This document shows, one piece after another, positions 8,692 through 36,706 of a stretch of DNA of 64,000 nt. Source of the DNA: Bacteroidota bacterium (GTDB lineage Bacteria; Bacteroidota; Bacteroidia; Bacteroidales; JBHOTF01). The DNA is taken from contig JBHOTF010000003.1 of the NCBI GenBank assembly GCA_042584005.1, positions 10,652 to 74,651 of the forward strand, read 5' to 3'. The notes beneath the pieces were generated by a model. The model ran no database searches, was not told where the DNA came from, and saw only the letters and a list, made by a program, of their open reading frames with translations. The position numbers and the translations under genes were made by a program. Within the stretch, counting starts at the first letter, position 1. The number at the start of each line of letters is the position of its first letter.

Positions 8692-10227
8692 TTATGTTTT
8701 TCTATAAGGAATTTTTAATTTGTTCATCCTGTTTCTTAATGTGCTGGCATTAACTCCAAGTAATTTTGCTGCTCCTTTAGGTCCATGTACTCTCCCTTTT
8801 GTTTTTAAAAGAACATTCGTAATGTGTTTTTTTACAGCCTTATCAAGATTGTATGACTCTGATCCATTTTGTTCAGCAGATAATAAACTGTCGAAATTTA
8901 TAGGTCCTTCGGGATTCAGTATTAATGCTCGTTCTACAATATTTTGAAGCTCTCTGACATTTCCAGGCCAATTATATTTCATTAAGGTTTTGATTGCTCC
9001 TGAAGAAACTTCAGGAACCGAGGTTAATTTTAATTCCTTAACTTTCTGACTGATAAAATGCTGAAGCAATACCGGGATATCAGCTTTTCTATCCCGTAAG
9101 GACGGTATTCTGATAGATAAGGCATTCAGACGAAACCATAAATCTTCTCTGAATTTTTTATCCTTAACCATTTCTTCAAGATTCCTGTTTGTGCCAACTA
9201 TTATTTTTATATCCAGCTTTATTGATTTATTTCCACCTATTCTTTCAATTTTATTGTTTTGAAGAACTCGAAATAACTTTTCCTGAGTATATAAGGGTAA
9301 TCTGCCTATTTCATCGAGATAAATAGTTCCTTTATTTGCGCGCTCAAGCCTGCCTCTCTGACTGGATATAGCACCAGGGAAAGCTCCTTTTTCATATCCG
9401 AAAAGTTCACCATCGATATGATGATCAGGTATATCACTACAGTTAAGGGATACAAATGGCCCTTTGTTTTTTGAAGAATAATAATGAATAGCATTAGCAA
9501 TAATATCTTTGCCAACTCCAATTTCTCCTACCAGCAAAACCGGACTGATAACTGAGGAAACTTGCCTGACCATTTCCATAACATTTCTTAAGCCGAAGTT
9601 AGCCCCAATTATTTCATCGCCCGATTTCCTTCTAAGCTGAGTATGAAGATATTGGTTGTCATCAATCAATAAGTTATATCGTTTAATAAGTTTCCTGTGC
9701 TCCAAAGTATTTGATAATGCCAGAACAAATGTTTCCTTTAATAAGGAAATTAGTTTTGCATGATTTTCATGATATTTTTGCCTGCCATCAGCAATTAATA
9801 CAAAGCTGCCAAGCAATTTATATTCCGTTCTTAGGAGCATTATCAACATTGCATTGGCTTTAACTTTATAAGAATCTAAAATCTCCCGGCCAATAATCCC
9901 CTTTTCAAGACCGTTATAAAAAACAACATCAGCAATCTTGCTTTTTTCTATTTTTTTTAGATCTGATTTTGCTTCACCGGATAAACGGATCAATAAATCT
10001 GATTTTTTTGATTTTGTATATGTTGCCTCGGCAATAGCTCTCATTGAGTTCCCCCCAGCATCATATTTTAATAGAAATATGCGGTCAGCAGGAATACTTT
10101 GTTTAATATACCTGATAAATGTTAATAAGGCCTTCTCAATTTCTAATTGTCCGCAAATATGAAGAGTAGCTTTTTGGAAAAATTCGTTTTTATTGATATG
10201 GTCCATGACAGAATATTTTTTTGTCAA
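8692..10227 (-). CDS. Sigma-54-type enhancer-binding protein (GAF sensor + AAA+ + Fis-type HTH) with a non-canonical GAFPGA loop
   Basis: AAA+ core VLLVGEIGVGKDIIANAIH..ELFGYEKGAFPGA..GTIYLDEIGRLPLYTQEKLFRVLQ..RLNALSIRIPSLRDRKADI. C-terminal HTH AAKLLGVNASTLRNRMNKL. The ORF opens with TTG 10227; ATG 10206 (MDHINKNEFF) is the more likely start. Confidence 0.88.
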   Translation of the reverse strand: MTKKYSVMDHINKNEFFQKATLHICGQLEIEKALLTFIRYIKQSIPADRIFLLKYDAGGNSMRAIAEATYTKSKKSDLLIRLSGEAKSDLKKIEKSKIADVVFYNGLEKGIIGREILDSYKVKANAMLIMLLRTEYKLLGSFVLIADGRQKYHENHAKLISLLKETFVLALSNTLEHRKLIKRYNLLIDDNQYLHTQLRRKSGDEIIGANFGLRNVMEMVRQVSSVISPVLLVGEIGVGKDIIANAIHYYSSKNKGPFVSLNCSDIPDHHIDGELFGYEKGAFPGAISSQRGRLERANKGTIYLDEIGRLPLYTQEKLFRVLQNNKIERIGGNKSIKLDIKIIVGTNRNLEEMVKDKKFREDLWFRLNALSIRIPSLRDRKADIPVLLQHFISQKVKELKLTSVPEVSSGAIKTLMKYNWPGNVRELQNIVERALILNPEGPINFDSLLSAEQNGSESYNLDKAVKKHITNVLLKTKGRVHGPKGAAKLLGVNASTLRNRMNKLKIPYRKT

Positions 10228-10370
10228 ATACGGCGAATGTAATGATAATTGCCATATATGACAAATATTTAGCTTGCAAAGTAAAGACCCGTGATCTGGC
10301 AGATGATTATTTGCTTTTTTAATTGATTCAAAATTATTAACTTCATTGGCTTGATTTAATATTAAGTTTA

Positions 10371-11882
10371 ATGAAGAAAAAGCGATTTTTTTTATTTTTT
10401 TTCCCCGGAATAATAATCGGAATATTTTTTATCTTTTTAGGAAATAAGGCTGTTAGCGTGACTTCCACTGATAAATATTGTGCCTCCTGCCATGTCCATC
10501 CACAGGCAGATCAATCATGGAAAAAATCAACTCATTATAATAATAAATCAGGAGTTCAGGTTCATTGTGTACAATGTCATTTGCCTCCTCATGGGGAAGG
10601 CTATTTGGGAGCTAAAATTAAAACAGGACTAAAAGACCTGTTTGCAACCTGGTTTAAAGATTCTGCTGATTATAACTGGGAAGAAAAATCGAGATTGGAA
10701 AATGCTGTACACTTCGTTCCTGAAGAATCGTGCATTGCTTGTCACCAGACAATATTTATGGTTTCATTATCAAAAGAAGGCGAAGAAGCACATTTATATT
10801 ATTCAGAAAAAATTAAAAAAGAGAATATTCATTGCATTAACTGCCATATCGGTGTTGGACATTATAACCCGGATTTAATTCATGCAAAAAATCTGGAATT
10901 TGGAAAAGGAAGCGAAGAGAATACAAAAGTGTATAAAAAACCTGCCTCAGTAAAAAAATTCGAAAATTATACAGAATATATCCCGGGCTCTACTATTTCC
11001 TTTAACATGAAAGCTATTCCCGGTGGAAAGTTCATTATGGGAAGCCCTGATGATGAACCTTATCGTGATAATGATGAAGGGCCACTAAAAGAAATTGCTG
11101 TTAAGGCATTTTTTATGGCCGAGATTGAAGTTAGCTGGGATGAGTTCCTGGTATTTTATTCACAAACATCAGGCGAAGGGAGAAGCTCAGATAGCGAAGC
11201 AAGTAAAAAACAAATTGATGTTGATGCCATTGCTGGGGCCACACCTCCATACGGGCAACCAGATCAGAACTGGGGACTGGGAAAAAGACCCGCAATTACT
11301 ATGACATGGCATGCCGCAGAAACATATTGTAAATGGTTATCGAAAGTAACAGGAAAAAATTACAGGTTACCTACTGAAGCCGAATGGGAATATGCCTGTC
11401 GTGCCGGAACAACTACACCGTATTTTTTCGAGGGGAGTCCAAAGAAATTTCACAAAACAGGATTCTTTAGCAAGTTTTCATCAAATGACACCACTATAAT
11501 TAATTCATTTGTAATATATTCTGAGAACAGCAAATCAAAAACCCAGCCTCCGGAATCTGTTTTGCCCAATAAATTCGGTTTAAGGAATATGTTGGGTAAT
11601 GTCGCTGAGTTTTGCAGTGATTGGTATTCTGAGAATACATATTCAGATGGTTCGGCAGATAATCCTGCGGGGCCTGAATCGGGAACTGAACATGTTGTAC
11701 GCGGAGGCTCCTATAAGGATAATGCAGGTAATTTAAGAGCTGCAAACAGAGACTTTACAAAAAAGAAAAGCTGGCTGAGAACCGATCCGCAAATACCTAA
11801 AAGTATTTGGTGGTATTCCGACTGTTCCTGGGTAGGAATAAGAGTGGTTTGCGATTATGATGAAAATACAGCTAATAAATAA
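10371..11882 (+). CDS. Fusion protein: N-terminal TM helix + NapC/NirT-type tetrahaem cytochrome c + C-terminal FGE-sulfatase (SUMF1-like) fold domain
   Basis: TM helix FFLFFFPGIIIGIFFIFLG. Four CxxCH motifs (CASCH, CVQCH, CIACH, CINCH) lie in the first ~170 aa. FGE-fold motifs follow: PGGKFIMGSPDDEPYRDNDEGP, YRLPTEAEWEYACRAG, GNVAEFCSDWY, VVRGGSY. Confidence 0.85.
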   Translation: MKKKRFFLFFFPGIIIGIFFIFLGNKAVSVTSTDKYCASCHVHPQADQSWKKSTHYNNKSGVQVHCVQCHLPPHGEGYLGAKIKTGLKDLFATWFKDSADYNWEEKSRLENAVHFVPEESCIACHQTIFMVSLSKEGEEAHLYYSEKIKKENIHCINCHIGVGHYNPDLIHAKNLEFGKGSEENTKVYKKPASVKKFENYTEYIPGSTISFNMKAIPGGKFIMGSPDDEPYRDNDEGPLKEIAVKAFFMAEIEVSWDEFLVFYSQTSGEGRSSDSEASKKQIDVDAIAGATPPYGQPDQNWGLGKRPAITMTWHAAETYCKWLSKVTGKNYRLPTEAEWEYACRAGTTTPYFFEGSPKKFHKTGFFSKFSSNDTTIINSFVIYSENSKSKTQPPESVLPNKFGLRNMLGNVAEFCSDWYSENTYSDGSADNPAGPESGTEHVVRGGSYKDNAGNLRAANRDFTKKKSWLRTDPQIPKSIWWYSDCSWVGIRVVCDYDENTANK

Positions 11883-11911: not shown

Positions 11912-13264
11912 ATGAAAGAAAAAGATCAGATTTCCAGAAGAAATTTTATTAGCAAAGCAGCAGCTGTAGGTGCTGTGGGCGCTGTGGGTATTCCTGTATT
12001 GATGAATGCCTGTAAAACGGGAACTGTTCCGCAAGATCTGGTTCTCCCTCCCTTACTTGATATTGCACCTGATGGTCCTGAATTAAAAGCCGGATTGATT
12101 GGATGTGGAGGTCGTGGTACAGGAGCAGCAATGAATTTTCTCAGTGCAGGCCCAAATCTTAAAATAACCGCTCTCGGTGATGTATTACAGGATAGGTTAG
12201 ATGATTGTTTTAAGCAACTAATTGAGAAAAAACAAAATGAAGTGGCAAAAGAAAACTGCTTTGTTGGTTTTGATGCGTTTGAAAAAGTTATTAGCTCAGG
12301 AGTTGATATAATAATACTTGCAACTCCACCATTTTTCCGCCCTGAACATTTTGCTGCTGCTGTACAGGCCGGTAAACATGTATTTATGGAAAAACCTGTT
12401 TGCGTTGACCCTGTAGGTGCACGATCAATAATGGCAACCGCAAAAAAAGCTGAAACTCTTGGACTATCTGTTGTAACAGGTACCCAGAGAAGACATCAGA
12501 GAGATTATATAGGCATTTACAAACGAGTTATGGCAGGTGATATGGGTGAAATTGTAGCTGCAAATGCATACTGGAATGGAGGCAAATTATGGCATAAAGA
12601 TCCCAGACCTGATTGGACGGAGATGGAATATATGATAAGAGACTGGGTTAACTGGTGCTGGCTGTCAGGTGACCATATTGTTGAACAGCATGTGCATAAC
12701 CTTGATGTAATAAACTGGTTTACAGGCTCACATCCTGTTAAAGCCGTTGGATTCGGGTCACGTTTAAGAAGAGTAACAGGCGATCAGTTCGACAATTTCA
12801 GTATTGATTATATATATGAAAACGATATGCATCTGCATAGTATGTGCCGTCAGATAAATGGTTGTGTTAATAATGTTTCTGAATTTATTATGGGAACAAA
12901 AGGGCATACCGATTGTCATAAATTTATTTATAATCCTGATGGGACTGTAAAATTCGAATACCCATATCCATTAAACGAAGATGGTGAATCAACAGGTAGA
13001 GTTAAAGTTGGCCCTTATGTTCAGGAGCACATTGATCTGGTAACTGGAATTCGCCGTAATGAGCCTTACAATGAAGCAGAAAATACCGCAATTTCAACTC
13101 TCACAGCTATTATGGGAAGAATATCTGCTTATACCGGTAAAGAAACCACCTGGGACGAAATGATGAATTCAGACCTTAAATTAGGGCCGAAAGTATTTGT
13201 TATGGGTCCGGTCGATATTAATAAAGAAGTACCAATTGCGGGGGAAGCTTATGTCGGGAAATAA
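11912..13264 (+). CDS. Gfo/Idh/MocA-family oxidoreductase with a twin-arginine (Tat) signal
   Basis: Tat motif ISRRNFISKAAAVGAVGAVG. Rossmann KAGLIGCGGRGTGAA. Conserved EKPV and the C-terminal alpha/beta domain are present. Confidence 0.88.
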   Translation: MKEKDQISRRNFISKAAAVGAVGAVGIPVLMNACKTGTVPQDLVLPPLLDIAPDGPELKAGLIGCGGRGTGAAMNFLSAGPNLKITALGDVLQDRLDDCFKQLIEKKQNEVAKENCFVGFDAFEKVISSGVDIIILATPPFFRPEHFAAAVQAGKHVFMEKPVCVDPVGARSIMATAKKAETLGLSVVTGTQRRHQRDYIGIYKRVMAGDMGEIVAANAYWNGGKLWHKDPRPDWTEMEYMIRDWVNWCWLSGDHIVEQHVHNLDVINWFTGSHPVKAVGFGSRLRRVTGDQFDNFSIDYIYENDMHLHSMCRQINGCVNNVSEFIMGTKGHTDCHKFIYNPDGTVKFEYPYPLNEDGESTGRVKVGPYVQEHIDLVTGIRRNEPYNEAENTAISTLTAIMGRISAYTGKETTWDEMMNSDLKLGPKVFVMGPVDINKEVPIAGEAYVGK

Positions 13265-14216
13265 TAACTCACGAAGGTCTTTTATTAAAAAGGCCGCTGG
13301 TTCAGCTGCTGTAATTATGGCAGCACCAGCTTTTGCAAGTGCTGCAACAGACGATAAAAAAAAGAAAAAAAAGAAGAATCTGCCTCCTGCTCCTTTTAAT
13401 CTGAAATATGCCCCTTCTTTTGGGATGTTCAGAGAAAGTGCCGGGAATGATCTTATTGATCAAATAAAATTTTGTCATGATCAGGGATTTCGTGCAATAT
13501 TTGATAACGGGCTGATGGGACGGGAAAAATCTATGCAGGAAAAAATTGCATATGAGCTCGACAGGCTTGGAATGGATCTTGGACCTTTTGTTTTGTATGC
13601 TGATTTTTCGGTTACTTCCTTTGTTACAAACGATGGAGAGAAAAGGAAAATGCTGATAAACAGGATGAAAGAAGGGGCTGAAACCGCAAGAATTACCGGT
13701 GTCAAATGGGCGCTGGTGGTTCCTGGTAGGTACGATGAAAGACTTCATTGGGATTATCAAACAAATAATGTTATTGATAATCTGAAATTTTGTATGGAAA
13801 TTCTGGAACCTGCAGGATTAACAATGGTTCTCGAGCCTTTGAATACTTTGCGCGATCATCCGGGATTATTCTTAACTGAAATGCCCCAGACTTATATGAT
13901 AGCAAAAGCTGTAAATAATCCATACTGTAAGATTGTTGACGATATATATCATCAGCAAATAACAGAAGGGAATATTATACCTAATATTGAATATTGCTAT
14001 GAAGAAATCGCTGCTTTCCATCTTGGTGATAATCCCGGAAGAAAAGAACCTACCTCAGGTGAAATAAACTATAAGAATATTTTCAAATATCTTTATAATA
14101 AAGAATTTGATGGAGTGTTATGTATGGAGCATGGAAAATCCTTAAAAGGCATTGAAGGTGAAAAGGCTGTGATTCAGGCATATAGGGAATGTGATGCATT
14201 TTTAGAAAAAGACTGA
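13251..14216 (+). CDS. Xylose-isomerase-like TIM-barrel protein (sugar phosphate isomerase/epimerase or hydroxypyruvate-isomerase-like) with a Tat signal
   Basis: Start chosen at ATG 13251 (MSGNNNSRRSFIKKAAGSAAVIMAAPAFASA, a Tat signal), which overlaps the upstream stop by 14 nt. The track start 13197 would bury the signal. TIM-barrel motifs VLEPLN and MEHG are present. Confidence 0.82.
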   Translation: MSGNNNSRRSFIKKAAGSAAVIMAAPAFASAATDDKKKKKKKNLPPAPFNLKYAPSFGMFRESAGNDLIDQIKFCHDQGFRAIFDNGLMGREKSMQEKIAYELDRLGMDLGPFVLYADFSVTSFVTNDGEKRKMLINRMKEGAETARITGVKWALVVPGRYDERLHWDYQTNNVIDNLKFCMEILEPAGLTMVLEPLNTLRDHPGLFLTEMPQTYMIAKAVNNPYCKIVDDIYHQQITEGNIIPNIEYCYEEIAAFHLGDNPGRKEPTSGEINYKNIFKYLYNKEFDGVLCMEHGKSLKGIEGEKAVIQAYRECDAFLEKD

Positions 14217-14293: not shown

Positions 14294-15448
14294 ATGCATA
14301 AATATGGTATAAAAGATTATGATGTTGTTATAGTTGGTGCCGGCCCGGCAGGATGTACCTGTGCCCTGGCATTAAAACAGTCGGGACTAAAAATAGCATT
14401 GGTAGATAAAGCTAAATTTCCCCGAAAAAAAGTGTGTGGAGACCTTATAACAGGCAGGGCAATAAAAATATTGAATAAACTATCTCCGGCATATGTGGAG
14501 GAATTAAAGAATACACAAAATCTTCTTATTAATAGAAAAACAGCCACATATTATAAGAATAAAAGATTGGAATTTAAATGGGTTAATGAAGCCTGTTTAT
14601 GCTCCAGAAAAGATTTCGATAATTTTTTGCTTAATCTGGTCAAGAAAAATACTAATACCGATATTTATGAAGGTTTTAATATTGATGACATTAAAAACAA
14701 TAATGAAAAAGTCTGTATTACAGCCGATAATGATAAAATAGTTATTAATACTAAAATAATAATTGGCGCTGATGGAGCAAGATCTATTGTTGCAAAAAAA
14801 CTATCAAACAGATTATCTGAAGATAAATATAAAGTTGATGCTGTTCAGGTATATTTCAAAAATGTAAAATGTTCCTCTGATAATACTGCTGAAATATATT
14901 TTGATAAAAAGTTTCTTCCAGGTTATTTTTGGTTGTTTGCTCTACCTGACAATATTGTTAATGTTGGTTTTGGGATGCTTACTAAAGAAATAAAACATAG
15001 GAAAATCAATATTAAGGAGGCATTTTACAGTTTTATAAATGAATCGGAAATTTTAAAAGAAAAATTTAAAAATTCTGAACAAATCTGCGAGATAGAAGGC
15101 GCCAGGTTGCCGATAGGATCAAAAATAACTAATGTTTCAGGAGAAAGATTTTTATTAACAGGCGATGCTGCCTCACTAATTGATCCTCTGAATGGTGAAG
15201 GAATAGGGAATGCAATGCTAAGTGGAAAAACAGCTGCAAGCCAGGTAGTTAAAAGTTTTGAAAACAACGATTTTAGTGCAGGTTATCATAAAAATTATGA
15301 TAAGGAATTGAAAAAATCTATAGGGAAGGAATTACAAAGCCGCTATAAAATGATGACACTATTCTTAAGGATCAGGATTATCCCGGGTTTGATATTTTTT
15401 TTAGCGACAAATAGATATATCAGGAAAAGAATTCAAAAATTTCTTTAA
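14294..15448 (+). CDS. Geranylgeranyl-reductase-family FAD-dependent oxidoreductase
   Basis: FAD-binding YDVVIVGAGPAGCTCA. GADGARS and TGDAASLIDPLNGEGIGNAMLSG motifs are also present. Confidence 0.85.
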   Translation: MHKYGIKDYDVVIVGAGPAGCTCALALKQSGLKIALVDKAKFPRKKVCGDLITGRAIKILNKLSPAYVEELKNTQNLLINRKTATYYKNKRLEFKWVNEACLCSRKDFDNFLLNLVKKNTNTDIYEGFNIDDIKNNNEKVCITADNDKIVINTKIIIGADGARSIVAKKLSNRLSEDKYKVDAVQVYFKNVKCSSDNTAEIYFDKKFLPGYFWLFALPDNIVNVGFGMLTKEIKHRKINIKEAFYSFINESEILKEKFKNSEQICEIEGARLPIGSKITNVSGERFLLTGDAASLIDPLNGEGIGNAMLSGKTAASQVVKSFENNDFSAGYHKNYDKELKKSIGKELQSRYKMMTLFLRIRIIPGLIFFLATNRYIRKRIQKFL

Positions 15449-16656: not shown

Positions 16657-17610
16657 TTGAAAACGACACATAAATATCCCATATTTTTTCTGTTTTGTGC
16701 ATTAATCCTCATTAATTGTACAAAAGAAAATATAGCACCTGTAGGTGATTTTTCTGTATATCCGAGAAGAGGTGATACTACTACCATCTTTTCATTTGAT
16801 GCTTCATTATCCTTAGATGCTGAAGAAAGCTTTGTTGGATTATATGTCCGCTGGGATTGGGAAAGTGACGGGATTTGGGATACACATTTTACCCGGGAAA
16901 AAACAATAAATCACATGTTTGAAACCAGTGGATACAAAAATGTAACTATGGAAGTAAAAGATAAAGCAGAAAATATATCAAGTATTAGCAAAGAAATTAT
17001 TGTAGGCAAAAATCTTAGTTCTACAATAACCGACCTCCGCGATAAGCAAATATACAGAATAGTTAAGATTGGAGATCAATGGTGGTTTGCAGAAAATCTT
17101 AATATAGGAATAAATATTGATACAAATAAAATCCAAATGGATAATGGAATAATTGAGAAATATTGTCATACTAATATTCCTGCTAATTGTAAAAAATCAG
17201 GAGCAGTGTATTTATGGGGTGAAATGATTAATTATACCAGATATACTGCAATACAGAAGTTGCAGCCAACAGATATAATTGTTAAAGGAATTTGTCCTGA
17301 TGGATGGCATATTCCCTCATTAAATGAATGGCAAACAATGTTAGAATATTTACCACGCGATACAGACCAAATTTTAGAGGGAGGGCTTTATGGAATAGAT
17401 TTTACAAGAAATTCATGGGAATTGTTTTCCCGTTCAGAAAATGCTCCTAAATGGACATATAGAAATTCATCCTTCTGGAGTTCAAGTATGATTAATAATT
17501 TTCACTATTCTGTAGAACCGGTTATTGAAGGCTATTGGTGGGCTAATTATGGAAATAACGCAATGGCAGTAAGATGTATTAAAGACATTGAACCGGACAT
17601 AATATTTTAA
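16657..17610 (+). CDS. Lipoprotein with PKD domain + FISUMP (Fibrobacter succinogenes major paralogous) domain, copy A
   Basis: A TTG start is needed to keep the signal/lipobox FFLFCALILINCTKE. PKD: TTIFSFDASLSLD..VRWDWESDGIWD. FISUMP: DLRDKQIYRIVKIGDQWWFAENLN..ICPDGWHIPSLNEWQTM..AMAVRCIKD. Confidence 0.85.
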   Translation: MKTTHKYPIFFLFCALILINCTKENIAPVGDFSVYPRRGDTTTIFSFDASLSLDAEESFVGLYVRWDWESDGIWDTHFTREKTINHMFETSGYKNVTMEVKDKAENISSISKEIIVGKNLSSTITDLRDKQIYRIVKIGDQWWFAENLNIGINIDTNKIQMDNGIIEKYCHTNIPANCKKSGAVYLWGEMINYTRYTAIQKLQPTDIIVKGICPDGWHIPSLNEWQTMLEYLPRDTDQILEGGLYGIDFTRNSWELFSRSENAPKWTYRNSSFWSSSMINNFHYSVEPVIEGYWWANYGNNAMAVRCIKDIEPDIIF

Positions 17611-19889: not shown

Positions 19890-20900
19890 ATGAAAATATC
19901 CATTACTTTGAAACACTTATTTAAACATATTGTATTATTTCTGTTTTGTTCATTAATATTTTTAAACTGCAAAAAAGAAAATATTCCTCCTGTCGCAATG
20001 TTCTCATATTATCCTGAAGAAGGTGATTCTACAACTATATTTTCTTTTGATGCTTCAGTATCCTTTGATAAGGAAAATTATAAGGGAGCCTTACAAGTTA
20101 GATGGGACTTTAATAATGACGGAGAGTGGGATACTGATTTTTCCTATGAAAAACAACATAACTATTGTTTTCCCCAATCCGGACTGTTTAATGTCAGACT
20201 TGAAGTTATTGATAATGGGGGCTTGTCTGGAAGTGTTGTGAAAGAGATGTATATACTTTCTGAGAATATTAAATCTACCTTAACAGATGAAAGAGATGGC
20301 AGGGTATACAAAATTGTAAGAATTGAAGATCAATGGTGGATGTCTGAAAATCTTAACTACGGAACACAAATTAAATCTAATATATTCCAGACTGATAACG
20401 ATACTGTTGAAAAGTATTTTTTCTATAATAATGATTCATTAGGCAATATTCATGGAGGTTTATATGAGTGGGATGAAGCAATGAATTACTCAAAAGATAC
20501 TTCCGCTCAGGGAATTTGTCCTTCAGGATGGCATATCCCGACTCAAAATGACTGGAATAAAGTTTTAGAAAAATACAATCCTACCGTAGCACAATATTAT
20601 GAACCTGAGGGTCAAACAGGCCTCGATTTTATTACTACAGGGATGTTATGGCATGATATTAATATTGATAAGTGGATATACAGACGATGGCGAAATAAAA
20701 GTCCGGATGGTTATTATGTTGAAAATTTCTGGACATCGGAAATGATACCAAGAAATTTTAATCAGGCATCCATTAACTTTTATGCAAAGTATAAAAAACA
20801 ATTGATCTACTATCTTGATTTGTATTATACATATCCGTTTAAATATGGTTATAGTTCAGGGATGTCTGCTATGCCTATACGTTGTGTTAAGTACAATTAG
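19890..20900 (+). CDS. Lipoprotein with PKD domain + FISUMP domain, copy B
   Basis: ATG 4 nt after the X2 stop. Lipobox LIFLNCKKE. PKD: TTIFSFDASVSFD..VRWDFNNDGEWD. FISUMP: DERDGRVYKIVRIEDQWWMSENLN..ICPSGWHIPTQNDWNKV..AMPIRCVK. Confidence 0.85.
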   Translation: MKISITLKHLFKHIVLFLFCSLIFLNCKKENIPPVAMFSYYPEEGDSTTIFSFDASVSFDKENYKGALQVRWDFNNDGEWDTDFSYEKQHNYCFPQSGLFNVRLEVIDNGGLSGSVVKEMYILSENIKSTLTDERDGRVYKIVRIEDQWWMSENLNYGTQIKSNIFQTDNDTVEKYFFYNNDSLGNIHGGLYEWDEAMNYSKDTSAQGICPSGWHIPTQNDWNKVLEKYNPTVAQYYEPEGQTGLDFITTGMLWHDINIDKWIYRRWRNKSPDGYYVENFWTSEMIPRNFNQASINFYAKYKKQLIYYLDLYYTYPFKYGYSSGMSAMPIRCVKYN

Positions 20901-34469: not shown

Positions 34470-35624
34470 ATGATTGATAATTCTCTAATAACGCTAAATG
34501 AAAATGCGGTTGAAAATAATATTGCTTTTTTAAAAAAGAAACTTGGCAACAAAGTTAAAATATCAGCCGTTGTTAAAGCTAACGCCTATGGACACGGCGT
34601 AGAGCAAGTTGTCCCACTTTTCGAGAAATATGGAATTGAGCATTACTCTGTTTTTAATTATAGCGAAGCTTTTCGGGTTTTTAATTGTATCTCTAAACCG
34701 GCAACAATTATGGTTATGGGATGGTTGTGTGAAAAAAGTATCAGAGGAGCAATCACAAAAGGAATAGAGTTTTTTGTTTTTAATATTGAACGACTCAATA
34801 TTGCAATAAAATATGCCAAAGAGCTTAACATAAAGGCTAAAATTCATCTTGAAGCCGAAACAGGAATGAATCGTTCAGGCCTAAATACCGATGAATTAAA
34901 TAATGCGATTGCCAAGATAAAAGAAAATGCTCATTATATTGAAATAGTTGGATTTTGCACACATCTTGCAGGAGCCGAGAGTGTTTCCAATCGCGTAAGG
35001 ATACAAAGTCAGTTAAAGAAATATAAAAAAATGTTAGCGACTCTTGAAACCAATGATTTTATTCCCAAATATAAACATGTTGCTAATTCTGCAGCAGCAT
35101 TTGTTTATCCAAAAGCAAGAATGGATTTGGTAAGAATAGGAATTATGCTTTATGGTTTTTGGTCGAGTAGCGAAGTTTATGTCCAATATATCAACAATAA
35201 AATCAATAAAATTGATCCTTTGAAAAGGATACTTGGATGGCAAAGTCAAATTATGGCGATAAAAAAAATTAAGAGCGGTGAATTTATAGGTTACGGCATT
35301 TCTTTTCTGGCTCAAACTGATATTACAACTGCATTAATCCCCGTTGGATATTCATTCGGCTACAATCGCTCATTGAGCAATAAGGGGCGAGTGCTTATAG
35401 GCGGTCAAAGATGCAGTGTAATTGGTGTTGTAAATATGAATATGATAATAGCAGATATTTCGCATATTAATGATGCAAAGGTAGGAGATGAAGTTGTTTT
35501 AATTGGAAAACAGGGCGACTTAGAAATAAAGGTAAGTGCATTTAGCGAAATTAGCGACGAACTTAATTATGAAATACTAGCACATTTATCAGAATCAATA
35601 ATACGAACAGTAATAAAACAATAA
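34470..35624 (+). CDS. alr: Alanine racemase (PLP, fold type III)
   Basis: PLP-Lys motif SAVVKANAYGHG. C-terminal beta domain (GYGISF..IPVGYSFGY..RCSVIGVVNMNM). Confidence 0.88.
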   Translation: MIDNSLITLNENAVENNIAFLKKKLGNKVKISAVVKANAYGHGVEQVVPLFEKYGIEHYSVFNYSEAFRVFNCISKPATIMVMGWLCEKSIRGAITKGIEFFVFNIERLNIAIKYAKELNIKAKIHLEAETGMNRSGLNTDELNNAIAKIKENAHYIEIVGFCTHLAGAESVSNRVRIQSQLKKYKKMLATLETNDFIPKYKHVANSAAAFVYPKARMDLVRIGIMLYGFWSSSEVYVQYINNKINKIDPLKRILGWQSQIMAIKKIKSGEFIGYGISFLAQTDITTALIPVGYSFGYNRSLSNKGRVLIGGQRCSVIGVVNMNMIIADISHINDAKVGDEVVLIGKQGDLEIKVSAFSEISDELNYEILAHLSESIIRTVIKQ

Positions 35625-35626
35625 TT

Positions 35627-36706
35627 ATGGCTTTTGTAACAATAGATGTAAAAAAACTTAAATCTAACTTTGAGTATCTCAATACCCTTTTTAAAAAAAA
35701 CGGCATTGAATGGTCAGTTGTTTCCAAAGTATTAAGTGGCAACAAAAAATATTTGACTGAACTATTGAAATTTGATATAAAGACTATATCAGACTCTCGT
35801 GTGACTAATTTAAAAATGATTAAATCAATCAATCCCAATATTGAAACAATTTATATAAAACCACCTGCAAAACGTGCCATTTTAAGTGTAGTAAAATATG
35901 CCGATGTGAGCATGAATACAGAATTTGAAACTATCAAGCTGTTAGCAGAGGAAGCTAAAAAACAGAACAAAATTCACAAAATAATCATTATGATTGAATT
36001 GGGTGAACTTCGCGAGGGTGTAATGGGCGACGATTTTATGTCTTTTTATGAAAGTGTTTTCAAATTAGAAAACATTCAAGTTGTGGGAATTGGAACCAAT
36101 CTATCTTGCTTATATGGCGTTTTACCAAATCACGATAAATTAATTCAATTAAGTCTGTATGAACAATTAATTGAAGCAAAATTTAACAGGCAAATAGAAT
36201 ATGTTTCAGGAGGTTCATCTGTTACAATCCCCTTAATTTTTCAAAATTTACTACCTAAAGGAATCAATCATTTTAGAGTAGGAGAGACTCTTTTTTTAGG
36301 CACCGATGTTTATAACAATAGACCGTTTAAAAAAATGAATGCGGATGTGTTTACATTATATTCAGAGATAATTGAATTAACCGAAAAACCAATGAATCCT
36401 GAAGGAGAACTTGGCAGTAATGTTGAAGGAGAGGAATTTGGGTTTGACCCAAAAAATATTGGGGAAACTTCGAAAAGGGCAATTATTGACATTGGATTGC
36501 TTGATGTAGATATTAATCATATTGAATTAGTTGACAAAACTATAAAAATGGCAGGAGCAAGTTCAGATATGATTGTAATTGACCTTGACGAAAATAAGAA
36601 GAAATATAAAGTTGGAGATTTGATCAAATTTAAATTAGATTATATGGGAACTCTCAGGATACTAAACTCCAAATATATTGAGAAGAAGATAAAAAACGGC
36701 AGCTAA
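35627..36706 (+). CDS. Alanine/ornithine-racemase-family (Orr/YhfX-like) PLP enzyme
   Basis: Starts 3 nt after the alr stop. Fold-type-III features: WSVVSKVLSGN (candidate PLP Lys), IMIELGELREGV, YVSGGSSVT, FRVGETLFLG. Confidence 0.75.
   Translation: MAFVTIDVKKLKSNFEYLNTLFKKNGIEWSVVSKVLSGNKKYLTELLKFDIKTISDSRVTNLKMIKSINPNIETIYIKPPAKRAILSVVKYADVSMNTEFETIKLLAEEAKKQNKIHKIIIMIELGELREGVMGDDFMSFYESVFKLENIQVVGIGTNLSCLYGVLPNHDKLIQLSLYEQLIEAKFNRQIEYVSGGSSVTIPLIFQNLLPKGINHFRVGETLFLGTDVYNNRPFKKMNADVFTLYSEIIELTEKPMNPEGELGSNVEGEEFGFDPKNIGETSKRAIIDIGLLDVDINHIELVDKTIKMAGASSDMIVIDLDENKKKYKVGDLIKFKLDYMGTLRILNSKYIEKKIKNGS

What the first reader, a model, noticed from the sequence alone, without database searches (positions are those of the whole stretch)
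11007..11879. The FGE-fold domain on the cytochrome lacks the catalytic cysteine pair
Genuine formylglycine-generating enzymes have two Cu-binding cysteines directly after the conserved RGGS(W/F) strand (RGGS-x-x-C-x-x-x-x-C). This protein instead reads VVRGGSYKDNAGNLRAANRDF, with no Cys. An insertion follows (KKKSWLRTDPQIPKSIWWYSDCSW) before the terminal GIRVV strand. The structural motifs of the fold are intact: RLPTEAEWEYACRAG and GNVAEFCSDWY. Bacteroidota are known to reuse this fold non-catalytically, as in GldJ and GldK. The domain is therefore more likely a binding or docking module, or a different chemistry, than a sulfatase-maturing enzyme. No sulfatase gene is present in the window.
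Basis: partly seen in the sequence, partly recalled or inferred. Interest (0 to 1): 0.6.

Follow-up and report, generated by a model that had tools for sequence, protein, structure and literature searches.

The report
Cytochrome-fused FGE-like domain, probable flavin carrier
The cysteine-less FGE-like domain on this membrane cytochrome is not a sulfatase maturase; it belongs to a large, undescribed family that always sits beside an exported sugar-type dehydrogenase and probably carries a covalently attached flavin that passes the dehydrogenase's electrons to haems.

Summary
Window 10371..11882(+) encodes a 503-aa protein with one TM helix, a NapC/NirT tetrahaem domain and an FGE-fold domain. 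The FGE copper ligands are absent: human Cys336 aligns with D450, and Cys341 falls in a 3-residue segment this family lacks. No sulfatase lies in the window. Loss of the Cys pair is common among FGE-like domains and is not the interesting part.

This is a large family (each of three searches reached its 8,000-candidate limit). It occurs in Bacteroidota, Planctomycetota, Verrucomicrobiota and Acidobacteriota. Two signatures define it and generic FGE domains lack both. One is a loop D-x-x-[S/T]-[G/R]-[A/P]-[S/T] (window D285-AIAGA-T291), with the terminal S/T present in 360/360 members. The other is an insertion W-x3-DPQ-x-P-K-S-x-W-W.

Gene context:
- A TAT-signal Gfo/Idh/MocA dehydrogenase is in 66 of 80 related loci and adjacent in about 60.
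- An ApbE flavin-transferase gene is adjacent in 23/80, sometimes as a three-gene operon.
- The domain is fused to two unrelated cytochrome c types, or stands alone.

Best explanation (about 0.55): the loop is an ApbE flavinylation site. The FMN takes hydride from the dehydrogenase's bound NAD(P)H and feeds single electrons to the haems and menaquinone. This is entirely computational. I found no paper describing it.

The parts
10371..11882 (+). Whole gene: 503-aa membrane-anchored tetrahaem cytochrome c fused to an FGE-like domain
   Evidence: ORF. Pfam PF03264 plus PF03781. Identical protein P0001 is named 'SUMF1/EgtB/PvdO family nonheme iron enzyme [Bacteroidota bacterium]'.
10386..10442 (+). 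N-terminal hydrophobic helix (aa 6-24, FFLFFFPGIIIGIFFIFLG): membrane anchor that places the rest in the periplasm
   Evidence: Sequence. AF model helix 3-30. Typical NapC/NirT topology, from established knowledge.
10380..10874 (+). NapC/NirT-type tetrahaem domain (aa 4-168). CxxCH motifs at nt 10479-10493, 10566-10580, 10731-10745 and 10833-10847
   Evidence: Pfam PF03264 E 1.5e-31, 109.9 bits against cut-off 24.1. All four CxxCH motifs are invariant in 53 homologues. Positions.
11007..11879 (+).
   Evidence: PF03781 E 1e-43. AF2 model of aa 195-503: pLDDT 85.3, pTM 0.87. Foldseek best match PvdO 5hha, E 2e-19, then genuine FGEs.
11223..11243 (+). D285-A-I-A-G-A-T291: candidate ApbE flavinylation motif. 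T291 (nt 11241-11243) is the proposed FMN attachment site
   Evidence: Published motif D-x-x-[S/T]-G-A-[S/T] (PMC12052999). S/T at this column in 360/360 family members and D at -6 in 356/360. The loop is absent from 721 of 920 generic FGE domains. Per-locus motifs. It lies in the only low-confidence loop of the model.
11700..11750 (+). R444-GGSYKDNAGNLRAAN-R460: the loop that carries the Cu-binding Cys pair in genuine FGE; it has no Cys here
   Evidence: Profile alignment to human FGE: Cys336 aligns with D450 and Cys341 lies in a deleted 3-residue segment. Phmmer alignments stop at GGSY. 0/360 family members have a Cys here.
11772..11813 (+). W468-LRTDPQIPKSIW-W481: family-specific insertion before the last strand (GIRVV, nt 11835-11849)
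   Evidence: The DPQ motif is present in 359/360 family members and in 6 of 920 generic domains. W468, D472, P473, Q474, P476, S478 and W480 are invariant across three clades. Alignments to all PDB FGE-fold proteins end before it.
11912..13264 (+). Partner gene: 450-aa Gfo/Idh/MocA NAD(P)-type dehydrogenase with a twin-arginine signal (SRRNFISKAAA); it starts 29 nt after the cytochrome gene's stop
   Evidence: Pfam PF01408, PF22725 and TAT signal. Homologues are in 66 of 80 related loci and adjacent in about 60. 58 of 61 adjacent copies carry an RRxF-type motif. Nearest solved relatives are inositol dehydrogenase, DgpA and glucuronide-3-dehydrogenase.
13251..14216 (+). Third operon gene: xylose-isomerase-like TIM barrel with a TAT signal (MSGNNNSRRSFIKK); its likely start overlaps the Gfo stop by 14 nt
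   Evidence: PF01261 E 8e-24. Weak similarity to hydroxypyruvate isomerase, keto-sugar epimerase and IolI. Homologues are in 19 loci, 18 of them among the 80 related loci. Start position.
8692..10227 (-). Divergently transcribed sigma-54-dependent activator: a possible regulator, but its link to the operon is not shown
   Evidence: PF00158 E 5e-60. It is not conserved next to the pair in related loci. No canonical -24/-12 element lies in 10228-10370.

Best explanation
The gene encodes the electron-output subunit of a periplasmic sugar-type dehydrogenase.

Proposed mechanism:
1. The downstream Gfo/Idh/MocA enzyme is exported folded by the TAT pathway with NAD(P) bound. It oxidises a periplasmic sugar or cyclitol, probably to a keto-sugar that the TAT-exported TIM-barrel enzyme then processes.
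2. The FGE-fold domain has lost FGE chemistry. It has gained a loop carrying an ApbE-type flavinylation site (D285-AIAGA-T291) and a Trp-rich insertion (W468..DPQxPKSxWW481).
3. An ApbE flavin transferase attaches FMN to T291 in the periplasm.
4. The tethered FMN takes the hydride from the dehydrogenase's bound NAD(P)H. It then hands single electrons to the four c-haems of the NapC/NirT domain, which reduce menaquinone in the membrane.

In other phyla the same FGE-like module stands alone or is fused to PSCyt1/class-I cytochrome c domains. It would then feed whichever respiratory chain the organism has.

Shown here: the domain architecture, the loss of the Cys pair, the two family signatures, the gene pairing, the TAT signals, the ApbE adjacency and the cytochrome fusions.

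Inferred: FMN attachment, the direction and path of electron flow, and the substrate class.
For: 1. Architecture and loss of FGE chemistry.
2. Obligate partner. A Gfo/Idh/MocA homologue (33-67% identity) is present in 66 of 80 related genome loci from at least 4 phyla and is adjacent in about 60. Independent gene calls agree. 58 of 61 adjacent partners carry TAT motifs. The window's Gfo keeps the GxGxxG and EKP motifs.
3. Flavinylation motif. S/T is present at the T291 column in 360/360 members of three clades and in all 80 loci. D is at -6 in 356/360. The NapC-fused clade reads DAISGAT in 81 of 120, an exact match to the published D-x-x-[S/T]-G-A-[S/T]. Generic FGE domains lack the loop. The motif is essentially absent from Gfo (1/89) and TIM (0/19) neighbours.
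4. ApbE (PF02424, E 1e-57 to 1e-77) is adjacent in 23/80 loci. This includes three-gene operons ApbE-FGE-Gfo, such as L066 45-3499 with 54- and 73-bp gaps. These ApbEs have signal peptides.
5. ApbE adjacency tracks motif type. It is 0/20 where Gly is at -2 (canonical) and 23/59 where it is R, H, Y or S. This fits a dedicated transferase for the non-canonical motif.
6. Independent fusions to unrelated cytochrome c types: NapC/NirT and PSCyt1 PF07635 plus PF13442. This argues for a role in electron transfer.
7. Related loci hold 3-keto-sugar genes: 3-keto-disaccharide hydrolase PF06439 and ThuA PF06283, and the TIM barrel.
8. A flavin solves the chemical problem of passing a hydride from NAD(P)H to one-electron haems (established chemistry).
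9. Flexible loops or tails that carry ApbE sites have precedent (PMC11334425). The loop is the only low-pLDDT part of the model.
Against: - There is no experimental evidence of flavin on any family member.
- The window's own motif has Ala at position 4 (DAIAGAT), where the consensus has S/T.
- Most non-fused members have R-P in place of G-A (DAVTRP[ST]), and it is unknown whether ApbE accepts that.
- No ApbE gene is in the window or next to any NapC-fused homologue. The argument needs a housekeeping ApbE elsewhere in the genome. That is expected for Nqr/Rnf-bearing Bacteroidales but was not checked.
- PvdO, the nearest solved relative, shares D..TRP in this loop but has Gly at the T291 position. 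Part of the motif is therefore ancestral rather than flavinylation-specific.
- The spatial relation of T291, the insertion and the haems could not be examined, because the tools give no coordinates.
- The statistics are not corrected for phylogeny.
- The two published flavinylation surveys I read do not list this fold. That may mean it is novel, or that it failed their criteria.
Confidence: 0.55

Rival explanations
1. Cofactor-free docking or adaptor domain. The FGE-like fold only binds the Gfo/Idh/MocA enzyme and holds it at the cytochrome or membrane. Electrons reach the haems by some other route, or the dehydrogenase recycles its NAD(P) with a second sugar as Zymomonas GFOR does.
For: The gene pairing is tight. 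FGE-fold proteins such as PorK/GldK act structurally. 57 of the 80 loci have no adjacent ApbE. The GFOR-type ping-pong mechanism was proposed for BT2158 (PMC8121099).
Against: It does not explain the invariant S/T inside an ApbE-like motif or the ApbE genes in three-gene operons. It does not explain why two unrelated cytochrome types were fused to the domain. It offers no route from NAD(P)H to the haems.
Confidence: 0.2
2. PvdO-like oxidative enzyme. The domain itself binds and oxidises a small periplasmic molecule, for example the dehydrogenase's product or a planar heteroaromatic compound. It uses the fused cytochrome as its electron sink.
For: PvdO is the closest solved structure by profile (E 5e-37) and by fold. 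NCBIfam names PvdO 'dihydropyoverdine dehydrogenase' and the window protein matches that model at E 5e-31. The cytochrome fusions fit an oxidase role.
Against: The score is far below the PvdO cut-off (108 against 500 bits). No pyoverdine genes are nearby. The conserved partner is a dehydrogenase, not a substrate-producing pathway. The ApbE linkage is left unexplained. No redox-capable conserved side chains are evident apart from the S/T loop and Trp residues.
Confidence: 0.12
3. Maturation factor. The FGE-like domain post-translationally modifies or loads a cofactor into the Gfo/Idh/MocA partner after export, as has been suggested for NirV with NirK. The cytochrome supplies or removes electrons for that step.
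For: The gene pairing is strict. The FGE superfamily includes protein-modifying enzymes.
Against: TAT substrates are exported already folded with their cofactor. The catalytic Cys pair is absent. A maturation factor would not be expected to be permanently fused to respiratory cytochromes in several phyla. ApbE adjacency points to the FGE-like protein as a modification target, not as a modifier.
Confidence: 0.06
4. Genuine formylglycine-generating enzyme that uses the cytochrome in place of O2 to mature sulfatases anaerobically.
For: The match to PF03781 is strong. A sulfatase lies two genes downstream in one related contig pair (L081/L082). The hosts are anaerobes, in which O2-dependent FGE would not work.
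Against: Both copper-ligand cysteines are missing in all 360 family members. No sulfatase is in the window. Sulfatase genes are in only 3 of 80 loci, against 66 with Gfo.
Confidence: 0.02

Closest known systems
PvdO (Pseudomonas aeruginosa, PDB 5HHA), a periplasmic FGE-fold protein needed for oxidation of dihydropyoverdine
   Same: It is the closest solved structure by profile (E 5e-37) and by fold (Foldseek E 2e-19, TM 0.64/0.75). It is periplasmic, lacks the FGE Cys pair, and has a role linked to oxidation. It shares D..TRP in the loop that carries the proposed flavin site.
   Different: PvdO has Gly where this family has the invariant S/T. It lacks the W..DPQxPKSxWW insertion, since alignments stop before it. 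It is not paired with a Gfo/Idh/MocA gene and is not fused to a cytochrome. The window protein scores 108 bits against the 500-bit PvdO cut-off.
Genuine copper-dependent formylglycine-generating enzymes (human SUMF1, Thermomonospora curvata and Streptomyces coelicolor FGE)
   Same: Same fold. The structural motifs RLPTEAEWEY and GN(V/A)xE(W/F), including the Asn/Glu of a Ca site, are conserved, as is RGGS.
   Different: Neither Cu-binding cysteine is present. The Cys341 segment is deleted. There is an extra flavinylation-type loop and a C-terminal insertion. There is no sulfatase partner.
ApbE-flavinylated extracytosolic electron-transfer proteins (NqrC, RnfG, NosR, PplA, FMN_bind domains, flavinylated Flavodoxin_4 and FMN_red)
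   Same: Extracytosolic location. A D-x-x-[S/T]-G-A-[S/T]-type motif ending in an invariant S/T. apbE genes are co-located in many genomes. They are associated with cytochromes and with membrane electron transfer.
   Different: The carrier fold is FGE-like, and I found that in none of the flavinylation surveys I read. The motif is often R-P instead of G-A. The electron donor would be an NAD(P)-bound TAT-exported dehydrogenase. Flavin attachment is not demonstrated.
NapC/NirT/CymA/NrfH-type tetrahaem quinol dehydrogenases (and cytochrome cM552 of ammonia oxidisers, which runs towards quinone)
   Same: One N-terminal TM helix plus four CxxCH haems. The Pfam score is well above threshold.
   Different: A C-terminal FGE-like domain is fused to it. 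No nitrate, nitrite, TMAO or DMSO reductase is nearby. The predicted direction is quinone reduction, which is inferred.
Periplasmic sugar dehydrogenase systems: Zymomonas GFOR, Bacteroides BT2158/BT2156 3-keto-glycoside pathway, ThuAB, LacABC glucoside 3-dehydrogenase
   Same: A TAT-exported Gfo/Idh/MocA enzyme together with a xylose-isomerase-like TIM barrel. Related loci contain 3-keto-disaccharide hydrolase and ThuA. LacABC likewise couples sugar oxidation to a cytochrome c subunit (PMC9007349).
   Different: BT2156-2160 has no cytochrome or FGE-like gene, and its electron acceptor is unknown. LacABC uses an FAD GMC enzyme. The window Gfo scores only 31 bits against the 750-bit BT_2158 family cut-off.
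GldK/PorK and GldJ (T9SS lipoproteins with an FGE-like fold)
   Same: Bacteroidota FGE-fold proteins without FGE catalysis. There is partial sequence similarity over the C-terminal half.
   Different: The score is far below cut-off (110 against 350 bits). There is no lipoprotein signal and no gldLMN context. The similarity is more distant than to PvdO or FGE by fold (TM to target about 0.40).

Membership tests
Genuine FGE (SUMF1-type, Cu-dependent) | FGE fold / PF03781 match | tested here: met
   PF03781 E 1e-43. Foldseek to FGE structures E about 1e-15.
Genuine FGE (SUMF1-type, Cu-dependent) | Two Cu-binding cysteines after RGGS (human Cys336 and Cys341) | tested here: not met
   Cys336 aligns with D450 and Cys341 lies in a segment deleted from the family. 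0/360 homologues have a Cys there.
Genuine FGE (SUMF1-type, Cu-dependent) | Co-occurrence with sulfatase substrates | tested here: not met
   No PF00884 in the window. Sulfatase genes are in 3 of 80 related loci.
PvdO (dihydropyoverdine dehydrogenase) | Score above the NCBIfam NF051459 cut-off | tested here: not met
   107.8 bits against a cut-off of 500.
PvdO (dihydropyoverdine dehydrogenase) | Pyoverdine biosynthesis gene context | tested here: not met
   The neighbours are Gfo/Idh/MocA, a TIM barrel and a sigma-54 activator.
GldK/PorK, GldJ | Score above the TIGR03525 / TIGR03524 cut-offs, with lipoprotein and T9SS context | tested here: not met
   109.7 against 350 bits and 45.9 against 458 bits. 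The N-terminus is a TM helix plus haem domain. No gldLMN genes are nearby.
NapC/NirT tetrahaem cytochrome family | N-terminal TM helix plus four CxxCH, with a PF03264 match above threshold | tested here: met
   109.9 bits against 24.1. Four CxxCH motifs are invariant in homologues.
NapC/NirT tetrahaem cytochrome family | Quinol/quinone-coupled electron transfer to or from a periplasmic redox partner | not testable with these tools
   Inferred from family knowledge only.
ApbE-flavinylated extracytosolic proteins | Motif D-x-x-[S/T]-G-A-[S/T] with a terminal Ser/Thr | tested here: inconclusive
   The window reads DAIAGAT. D, G, A and the terminal T match, but position 4 is Ala. Clade consensus is DAISGAT (81/120). 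Other clades read DAV[ST]RP[ST]. The terminal S/T is present in 360/360.
ApbE-flavinylated extracytosolic proteins | Extracytosolic location of the motif | tested here: met
   The motif lies downstream of a TM helix and c-type haem domain. Stand-alone homologues have signal peptides. The topology itself is inferred.
ApbE-flavinylated extracytosolic proteins | Co-localisation with apbE | tested here: inconclusive
   Not met in the window or in the NapC-fused clade (0/20). Met in 23 of 59 loci of the other clades, including three-gene operons.
ApbE-flavinylated extracytosolic proteins | Covalently bound FMN demonstrated | not testable with these tools
   Needs protein chemistry: fluorescence on SDS-PAGE, mass spectrometry and a T291A control.
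BT2158-type glycoside 3-dehydrogenase (applies to the partner gene 11912..13264) | Score above the NF058561 cut-off | tested here: not met
   31.3 bits against a cut-off of 750. Only the Rossmann part aligns.

The most novel reading that the evidence does not exclude
The FGE fold has been recruited as a new class of ApbE substrate. A covalently FMN-bearing 'flavo-FGE' module, together with a TAT-exported NAD(P)-bound Gfo/Idh/MocA enzyme, would form a previously unrecognised and very widespread periplasmic sugar:cytochrome c / sugar:menaquinone oxidoreductase. It has thousands of members in Bacteroidota, Planctomycetota, Verrucomicrobiota and Acidobacteria. This would also answer how periplasmic Gfo-type dehydrogenases with non-exchangeable NAD(P) are re-oxidised.
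Probability: 0.5. Interest if true: 0.85.

Novelty: new variant of a known kind. Interest (0 to 1): 0.72.

Why it matters
If the reading is right, it has four consequences.
- It adds a new protein fold to the known targets of ApbE flavinylation.
- It assigns a function to a very large set of proteins now annotated as 'formylglycine-generating enzyme' or 'SUMF1/EgtB/PvdO family nonheme iron enzyme'. Those names wrongly suggest sulfatase maturation.
- It gives a concrete, testable answer to an open question raised for the Bacteroides 3-keto-glycoside pathway: how TAT-exported, NAD(P)-locked Gfo/Idh/MocA dehydrogenases dispose of their electrons in the periplasm (PMC8121099).
- It predicts a direct link between periplasmic sugar oxidation and the respiratory chain in anaerobic Bacteroidales (through menaquinone) and in aerobic Planctomycetes and Verrucomicrobia (through cytochrome c). 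That bears on carbon and energy budgets in gut, sediment and soil communities.

Even if flavinylation is wrong, the conserved FGE-like/Gfo pair is a clean and unexplored functional module.

Tried and rejected
- Full-length AF2 model from 53 close homologues. Confidence was too low to use (pLDDT 59.8). A domain-only model with three clades worked.
- The representative-library search with the FGE domain was swamped by multi-repeat FGE proteins. It served only as a negative-control set.
- Protein-derived quinone cofactor (CTQ/TTQ-like) matured by the neighbouring flavoprotein 14294..15448, which resembles LodB/GoxB/QhpG. I rejected this because that gene is a generic geranylgeranyl-reductase family member and is not conserved next to the pair in any related locus.
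- Sigma-54 promoter upstream of the operon. Only a TGGCA..TTGCT element with spacing 3 nt too long was found, and the pattern count in the window equals chance.
- Sulfatase linkage was at background level.
- Conserved neighbour cluster C8 (about 231 aa, Chitinophagaceae) has no Pfam hit and no CxxCH, so it was dropped.
- An adjacent separate cytochrome in stand-alone loci is rare: 7 loci have any other CxxCH ORF.
- Ten literature searches for any paper linking FGE/SUMF1 with Gfo/Idh/MocA, cytochromes or ApbE found nothing relevant.
- The afdb50 fold library was unavailable. Roeser et al. 2006, the FGE-peptide complex paper, is not held. I therefore could not show that T291 lies near the old active-site groove in 3-D.
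Full report
**1. What is at the coordinates**

Window 10371..11882(+) is a single 503-aa ORF. The flagged stretch 11007..11879 is its residues 213-503.

Pfam finds NapC/NirT (PF03264, aa 4-168, E 1.5e-31) and FGE-sulfatase (PF03781, aa 215-462, E 1e-43). A hydrophobic helix (aa 6-24) precedes four CxxCH motifs at aa 37, 66, 121 and 155. All four are invariant in 53 homologues.

The protein is identical to a GenBank entry named 'SUMF1/EgtB/PvdO family nonheme iron enzyme [Bacteroidota bacterium]'. The rest of the window looks like an ordinary low-GC Bacteroidota chromosome, with ECF sigma/FecR, TonB, a T9SS CHU_C protein and housekeeping genes.

**2. The Cys pair is missing, but that alone is ordinary**

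Phmmer alignments to human FGE stop at GGSY. A profile built from 80 family members aligns further. Human Cys336 falls opposite the family's Asp (window D450). Cys341 lies in a three-residue 'YCY' segment that the family lacks.

None of 360 family members has a Cys in the eight residues after GGS. Cys485 in YSDCSW is conserved only within the NapC-fused clade and is Ala elsewhere. It therefore cannot substitute for a copper ligand in the family as a whole. A 3-D superposition could not be done.

No sulfatase is present among the window ORFs of 150 aa or more.

In a control set of 920 generic FGE-like domains, only 305 have any Cys in that loop. Loss of the pair is therefore the rule rather than the exception in PF03781.

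**3. Fold**

A domain-only AlphaFold2 model (aa 195-503, 80-sequence alignment) has pLDDT 85.3 and pTM 0.87. Only aa ~264-299 are poorly defined. Foldseek against the PDB gives PvdO (5HHA) as best match (E 2e-19, TM 0.64/0.75). Human and bacterial FGEs follow. PorK and EgtB are more distant.

The family profile also hits PvdO best (E 5e-37). The nearest characterised relative is thus PvdO, not GldJ/GldK.

**4. The family and its two signatures**

Each of three database searches hit the 8,000-candidate ceiling. Three architectures were found:
- NapC/NirT plus FGE-like, as in this window. These are from Bacteroidales, Marinilabiliales/Prolixibacteraceae and one Acidobacteriota MAG.
- Signal peptide plus FGE-like alone. 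These are from Chitinophagaceae, Flavobacteriaceae, Pedobacter, Planctomycetota and Acidobacteriota.
- PSCyt1 (PF07635), with or without Cytochrome_CBB3 (PF13442), plus FGE-like. These are from Verrucomicrobiota, Planctomycetota and Bryobacterales.

HMM-guided alignment shows two features that are present in essentially every member and missing from generic FGE domains.

(a) A loop D-x-x-[S/T]-[G/R]-[A/P]-[S/T]-x-P-[Y/W].
- The window reads D285-AIAGA-T291-PPY.
- The NapC clade reads DAISGAT in 81/120. Stand-alone proteins read DAVTRPS and PSCyt-fused proteins read DAVSRPT.
- The final S/T is present in 360/360 and in all 80 genome loci. D at -6 is present in 356/360.
- In 721 of 920 generic domains the loop is simply absent.

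(b) The insertion W-x3-D-P-Q-x-P-[K/R]-S-x-W-[W/Y], which is window W468..W481. It is present in 359/360 family members against 6/920 generic domains. All PDB alignments end before it.

**5. Gene neighbourhood**

I clustered ORFs from 80 related genome loci. The conserved neighbours were:

| Neighbour | Loci | Notes |
|---|---|---|
| Gfo/Idh/MocA | 66 loci, including the window; adjacent in about 60 | Almost always the next gene downstream on the same strand; one further divergent copy in L079 |
| ApbE (PF02424) | 23 of 80 | E 1e-57 to 1e-77 |
| Xylose-isomerase-like TIM barrel | 19 loci, including the window | As in the window |
| 3-keto-disaccharide hydrolase (PF06439) | 6 | |
| ThuA (PF06283) with a second Gfo | 6 | |
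| Sulfatase (PF00884) | 3 of 80 | Background level |

58 of 61 adjacent Gfo proteins show a twin-arginine motif. In the window, Gfo starts 29 nt after the cytochrome gene. It begins MKEKDQISRRNFISKAAA and keeps the GxGxxG and EKP motifs. The TIM-barrel gene has its own TAT signal and overlaps the Gfo stop by 14 nt. Independent gene calls on other contigs show the same order.

ApbE often forms tight three-gene operons. Examples are ApbE-FGE-Gfo (L066 45-3499; also L034, L053, L059, L064, L068), FGE-Gfo-ApbE (L065, L077, L078) and Gfo-FGE-ApbE (L044, L075). These ApbEs carry signal peptides.

**6. Interpretation**

ApbE attaches FMN to the terminal Ser/Thr of D-x-x-[S/T]-G-A-[S/T] in extracytosolic proteins (PMC12052999; PMC11334425). 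Within the minimal ApbE/FGE-like/Gfo operons, only the FGE-like protein has such a motif. A loose pattern matches 59/76 FGE-like proteins, 1/89 Gfo and 0/19 TIM.

ApbE adjacency also tracks motif type. No locus with the canonical Gly at -2 has an adjacent ApbE (0/20). Of those with R, H, Y or S at that position, 23/59 do (Fisher p 4e-4, not phylogeny-corrected). This is what one would expect if a housekeeping ApbE serves canonical sites and a dedicated paralogue serves the divergent ones.

A flavin would also solve a chemical problem. A TAT-exported Gfo-type enzyme carries locked NAD(P)H, which donates a hydride. Haems accept single electrons. The repeated, independent fusion of the domain to two unrelated cytochrome c types argues that it sits on an electron-transfer path.

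I therefore propose this route: sugar, then Gfo-NAD(P)H, then FMN on T291, then four c-haems, then menaquinone. In the PSCyt-fused forms the last steps would instead run through cytochrome c to the aerobic chain. The reverse direction, from menaquinol to NAD(P)+, is energetically implausible (inference).

The 3-keto-sugar genes in related loci and the TIM barrel suggest that the substrate is a sugar, glycoside or cyclitol. The weak similarity of Gfo to inositol dehydrogenase, DgpA and glucuronide-3-dehydrogenase points the same way. The specific substrate is unknown. One related locus has a lactonase downstream, which would instead suggest C1 oxidation.

**7. Weaknesses**

- Nothing here shows flavin attachment.
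- The window motif has Ala at position 4.
- The R-P variants are untested as ApbE substrates.
- No ApbE is in the window or beside any NapC-fused homologue.
- PvdO shares part of the loop (D..TRP) without the terminal Thr.
- I could not inspect 3-D proximity of T291, the insertion and the former active-site cleft.
- The association statistics ignore shared ancestry.

**8. Novelty**

Ten full-text searches found no paper that links FGE/SUMF1-like proteins to Gfo/Idh/MocA enzymes, cytochromes or ApbE. The two systematic flavinylation surveys do not mention FGE, sulfatase-modifying or Gfo proteins as flavinylation systems in their text. FGE terms are also absent from the supplements held for the 2021 survey, where the only Gfo entry is a single neighbouring-gene row.

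The Bacteroides 3-keto-glycoside papers leave the electron acceptor of the TAT-exported BT2158 open.

I class this as a new variant of a known kind. The known kind is flavinylation-based extracytosolic electron transfer. The new elements would be the carrier fold and the donor enzyme.

**9. Verdict**

- The best-supported reading is a flavin-carrying electron-transfer domain that partners a periplasmic dehydrogenase (confidence about 0.55).
- The more general claim, that it is a redox partner subunit of the adjacent Gfo enzyme, is considerably safer (about 0.75-0.8).
- Interest is 0.72.

Noticed in passing
window 14294..15448 (+): An FAD-dependent geranylgeranyl-reductase-family protein lies directly after the operon. 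It has secondary similarity to the cofactor maturases LodB, GoxB and QhpG. It is not conserved beside the FGE-like/Gfo pair in any of 80 related loci, so the link is probably coincidental.
   Followed up: partly
window 10297..10315 (+), intergenic region 10228..10370: A TGGCA-N11-TTGCT element lies upstream of the cytochrome gene and next to a divergent sigma-54 activator (8692..10227). The GG-to-GC spacing is 3 nt longer than a canonical -24/-12 promoter. The pattern count in the window is at chance level.
   Followed up: partly
L004, L005, L007, L009, L010, L011 (about 7.5-11.9 kb in each locus): In a subset of NapC-fused loci the order is cytFGE - Gfo - second Gfo - ThuA (PF06283). A ThuA/ThuB-like pair therefore sits behind the FGE-like/Gfo pair, and the two dehydrogenase modules may share the cytochrome.
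   Followed up: partly
L083 13987..15102; L081 12784..14331: One related contig has a 7-bladed lactonase (PF10282) right after cytFGE-Gfo-TIM. That would fit C1 (aldose to lactone) rather than C3 oxidation. Another contig pair has a sulfatase two genes downstream, across an opposite-strand gene.
   Followed up: no
L080 1394..3654: Two FGE-like family genes in tandem precede the Gfo gene in a Fimbriiglobus (Planctomycetota) MAG.
   Followed up: no
window 13197..13264: The mechanical ORF for the TIM-barrel gene starts at TTG 13197. The TAT signal begins at ATG 13251 (MSGNNNSRRSFIKK), which gives a 14-nt overlap with the Gfo stop and suggests translational coupling.
   Followed up: yes
window 16657..17610 and 19890..20900 (+): Two paralogous proteins with the Fibrobacter succinogenes major domain (PF09603) flank two ORFs that have no Pfam match.
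   Followed up: no
window 34470..35624 and 35627..36706 (+): An alanine racemase is followed immediately by a second, divergent protein that has only the Ala_racemase_N domain.
   Followed up: no
L021, L025, L038, L061 (about 231-aa ORF next to the TIM barrel): A conserved secreted protein of about 231 aa with no Pfam match accompanies the TIM/FGE-like/Gfo cluster in Chitinophagaceae. It has no CxxCH motif.
   Followed up: partly
window 10371..11882, residues C415, C485, C494: These three cysteines are invariant or nearly so only within the NapC-fused clade and are absent from the other clades. They may form a clade-specific disulfide. This was not examined structurally.
   Followed up: no
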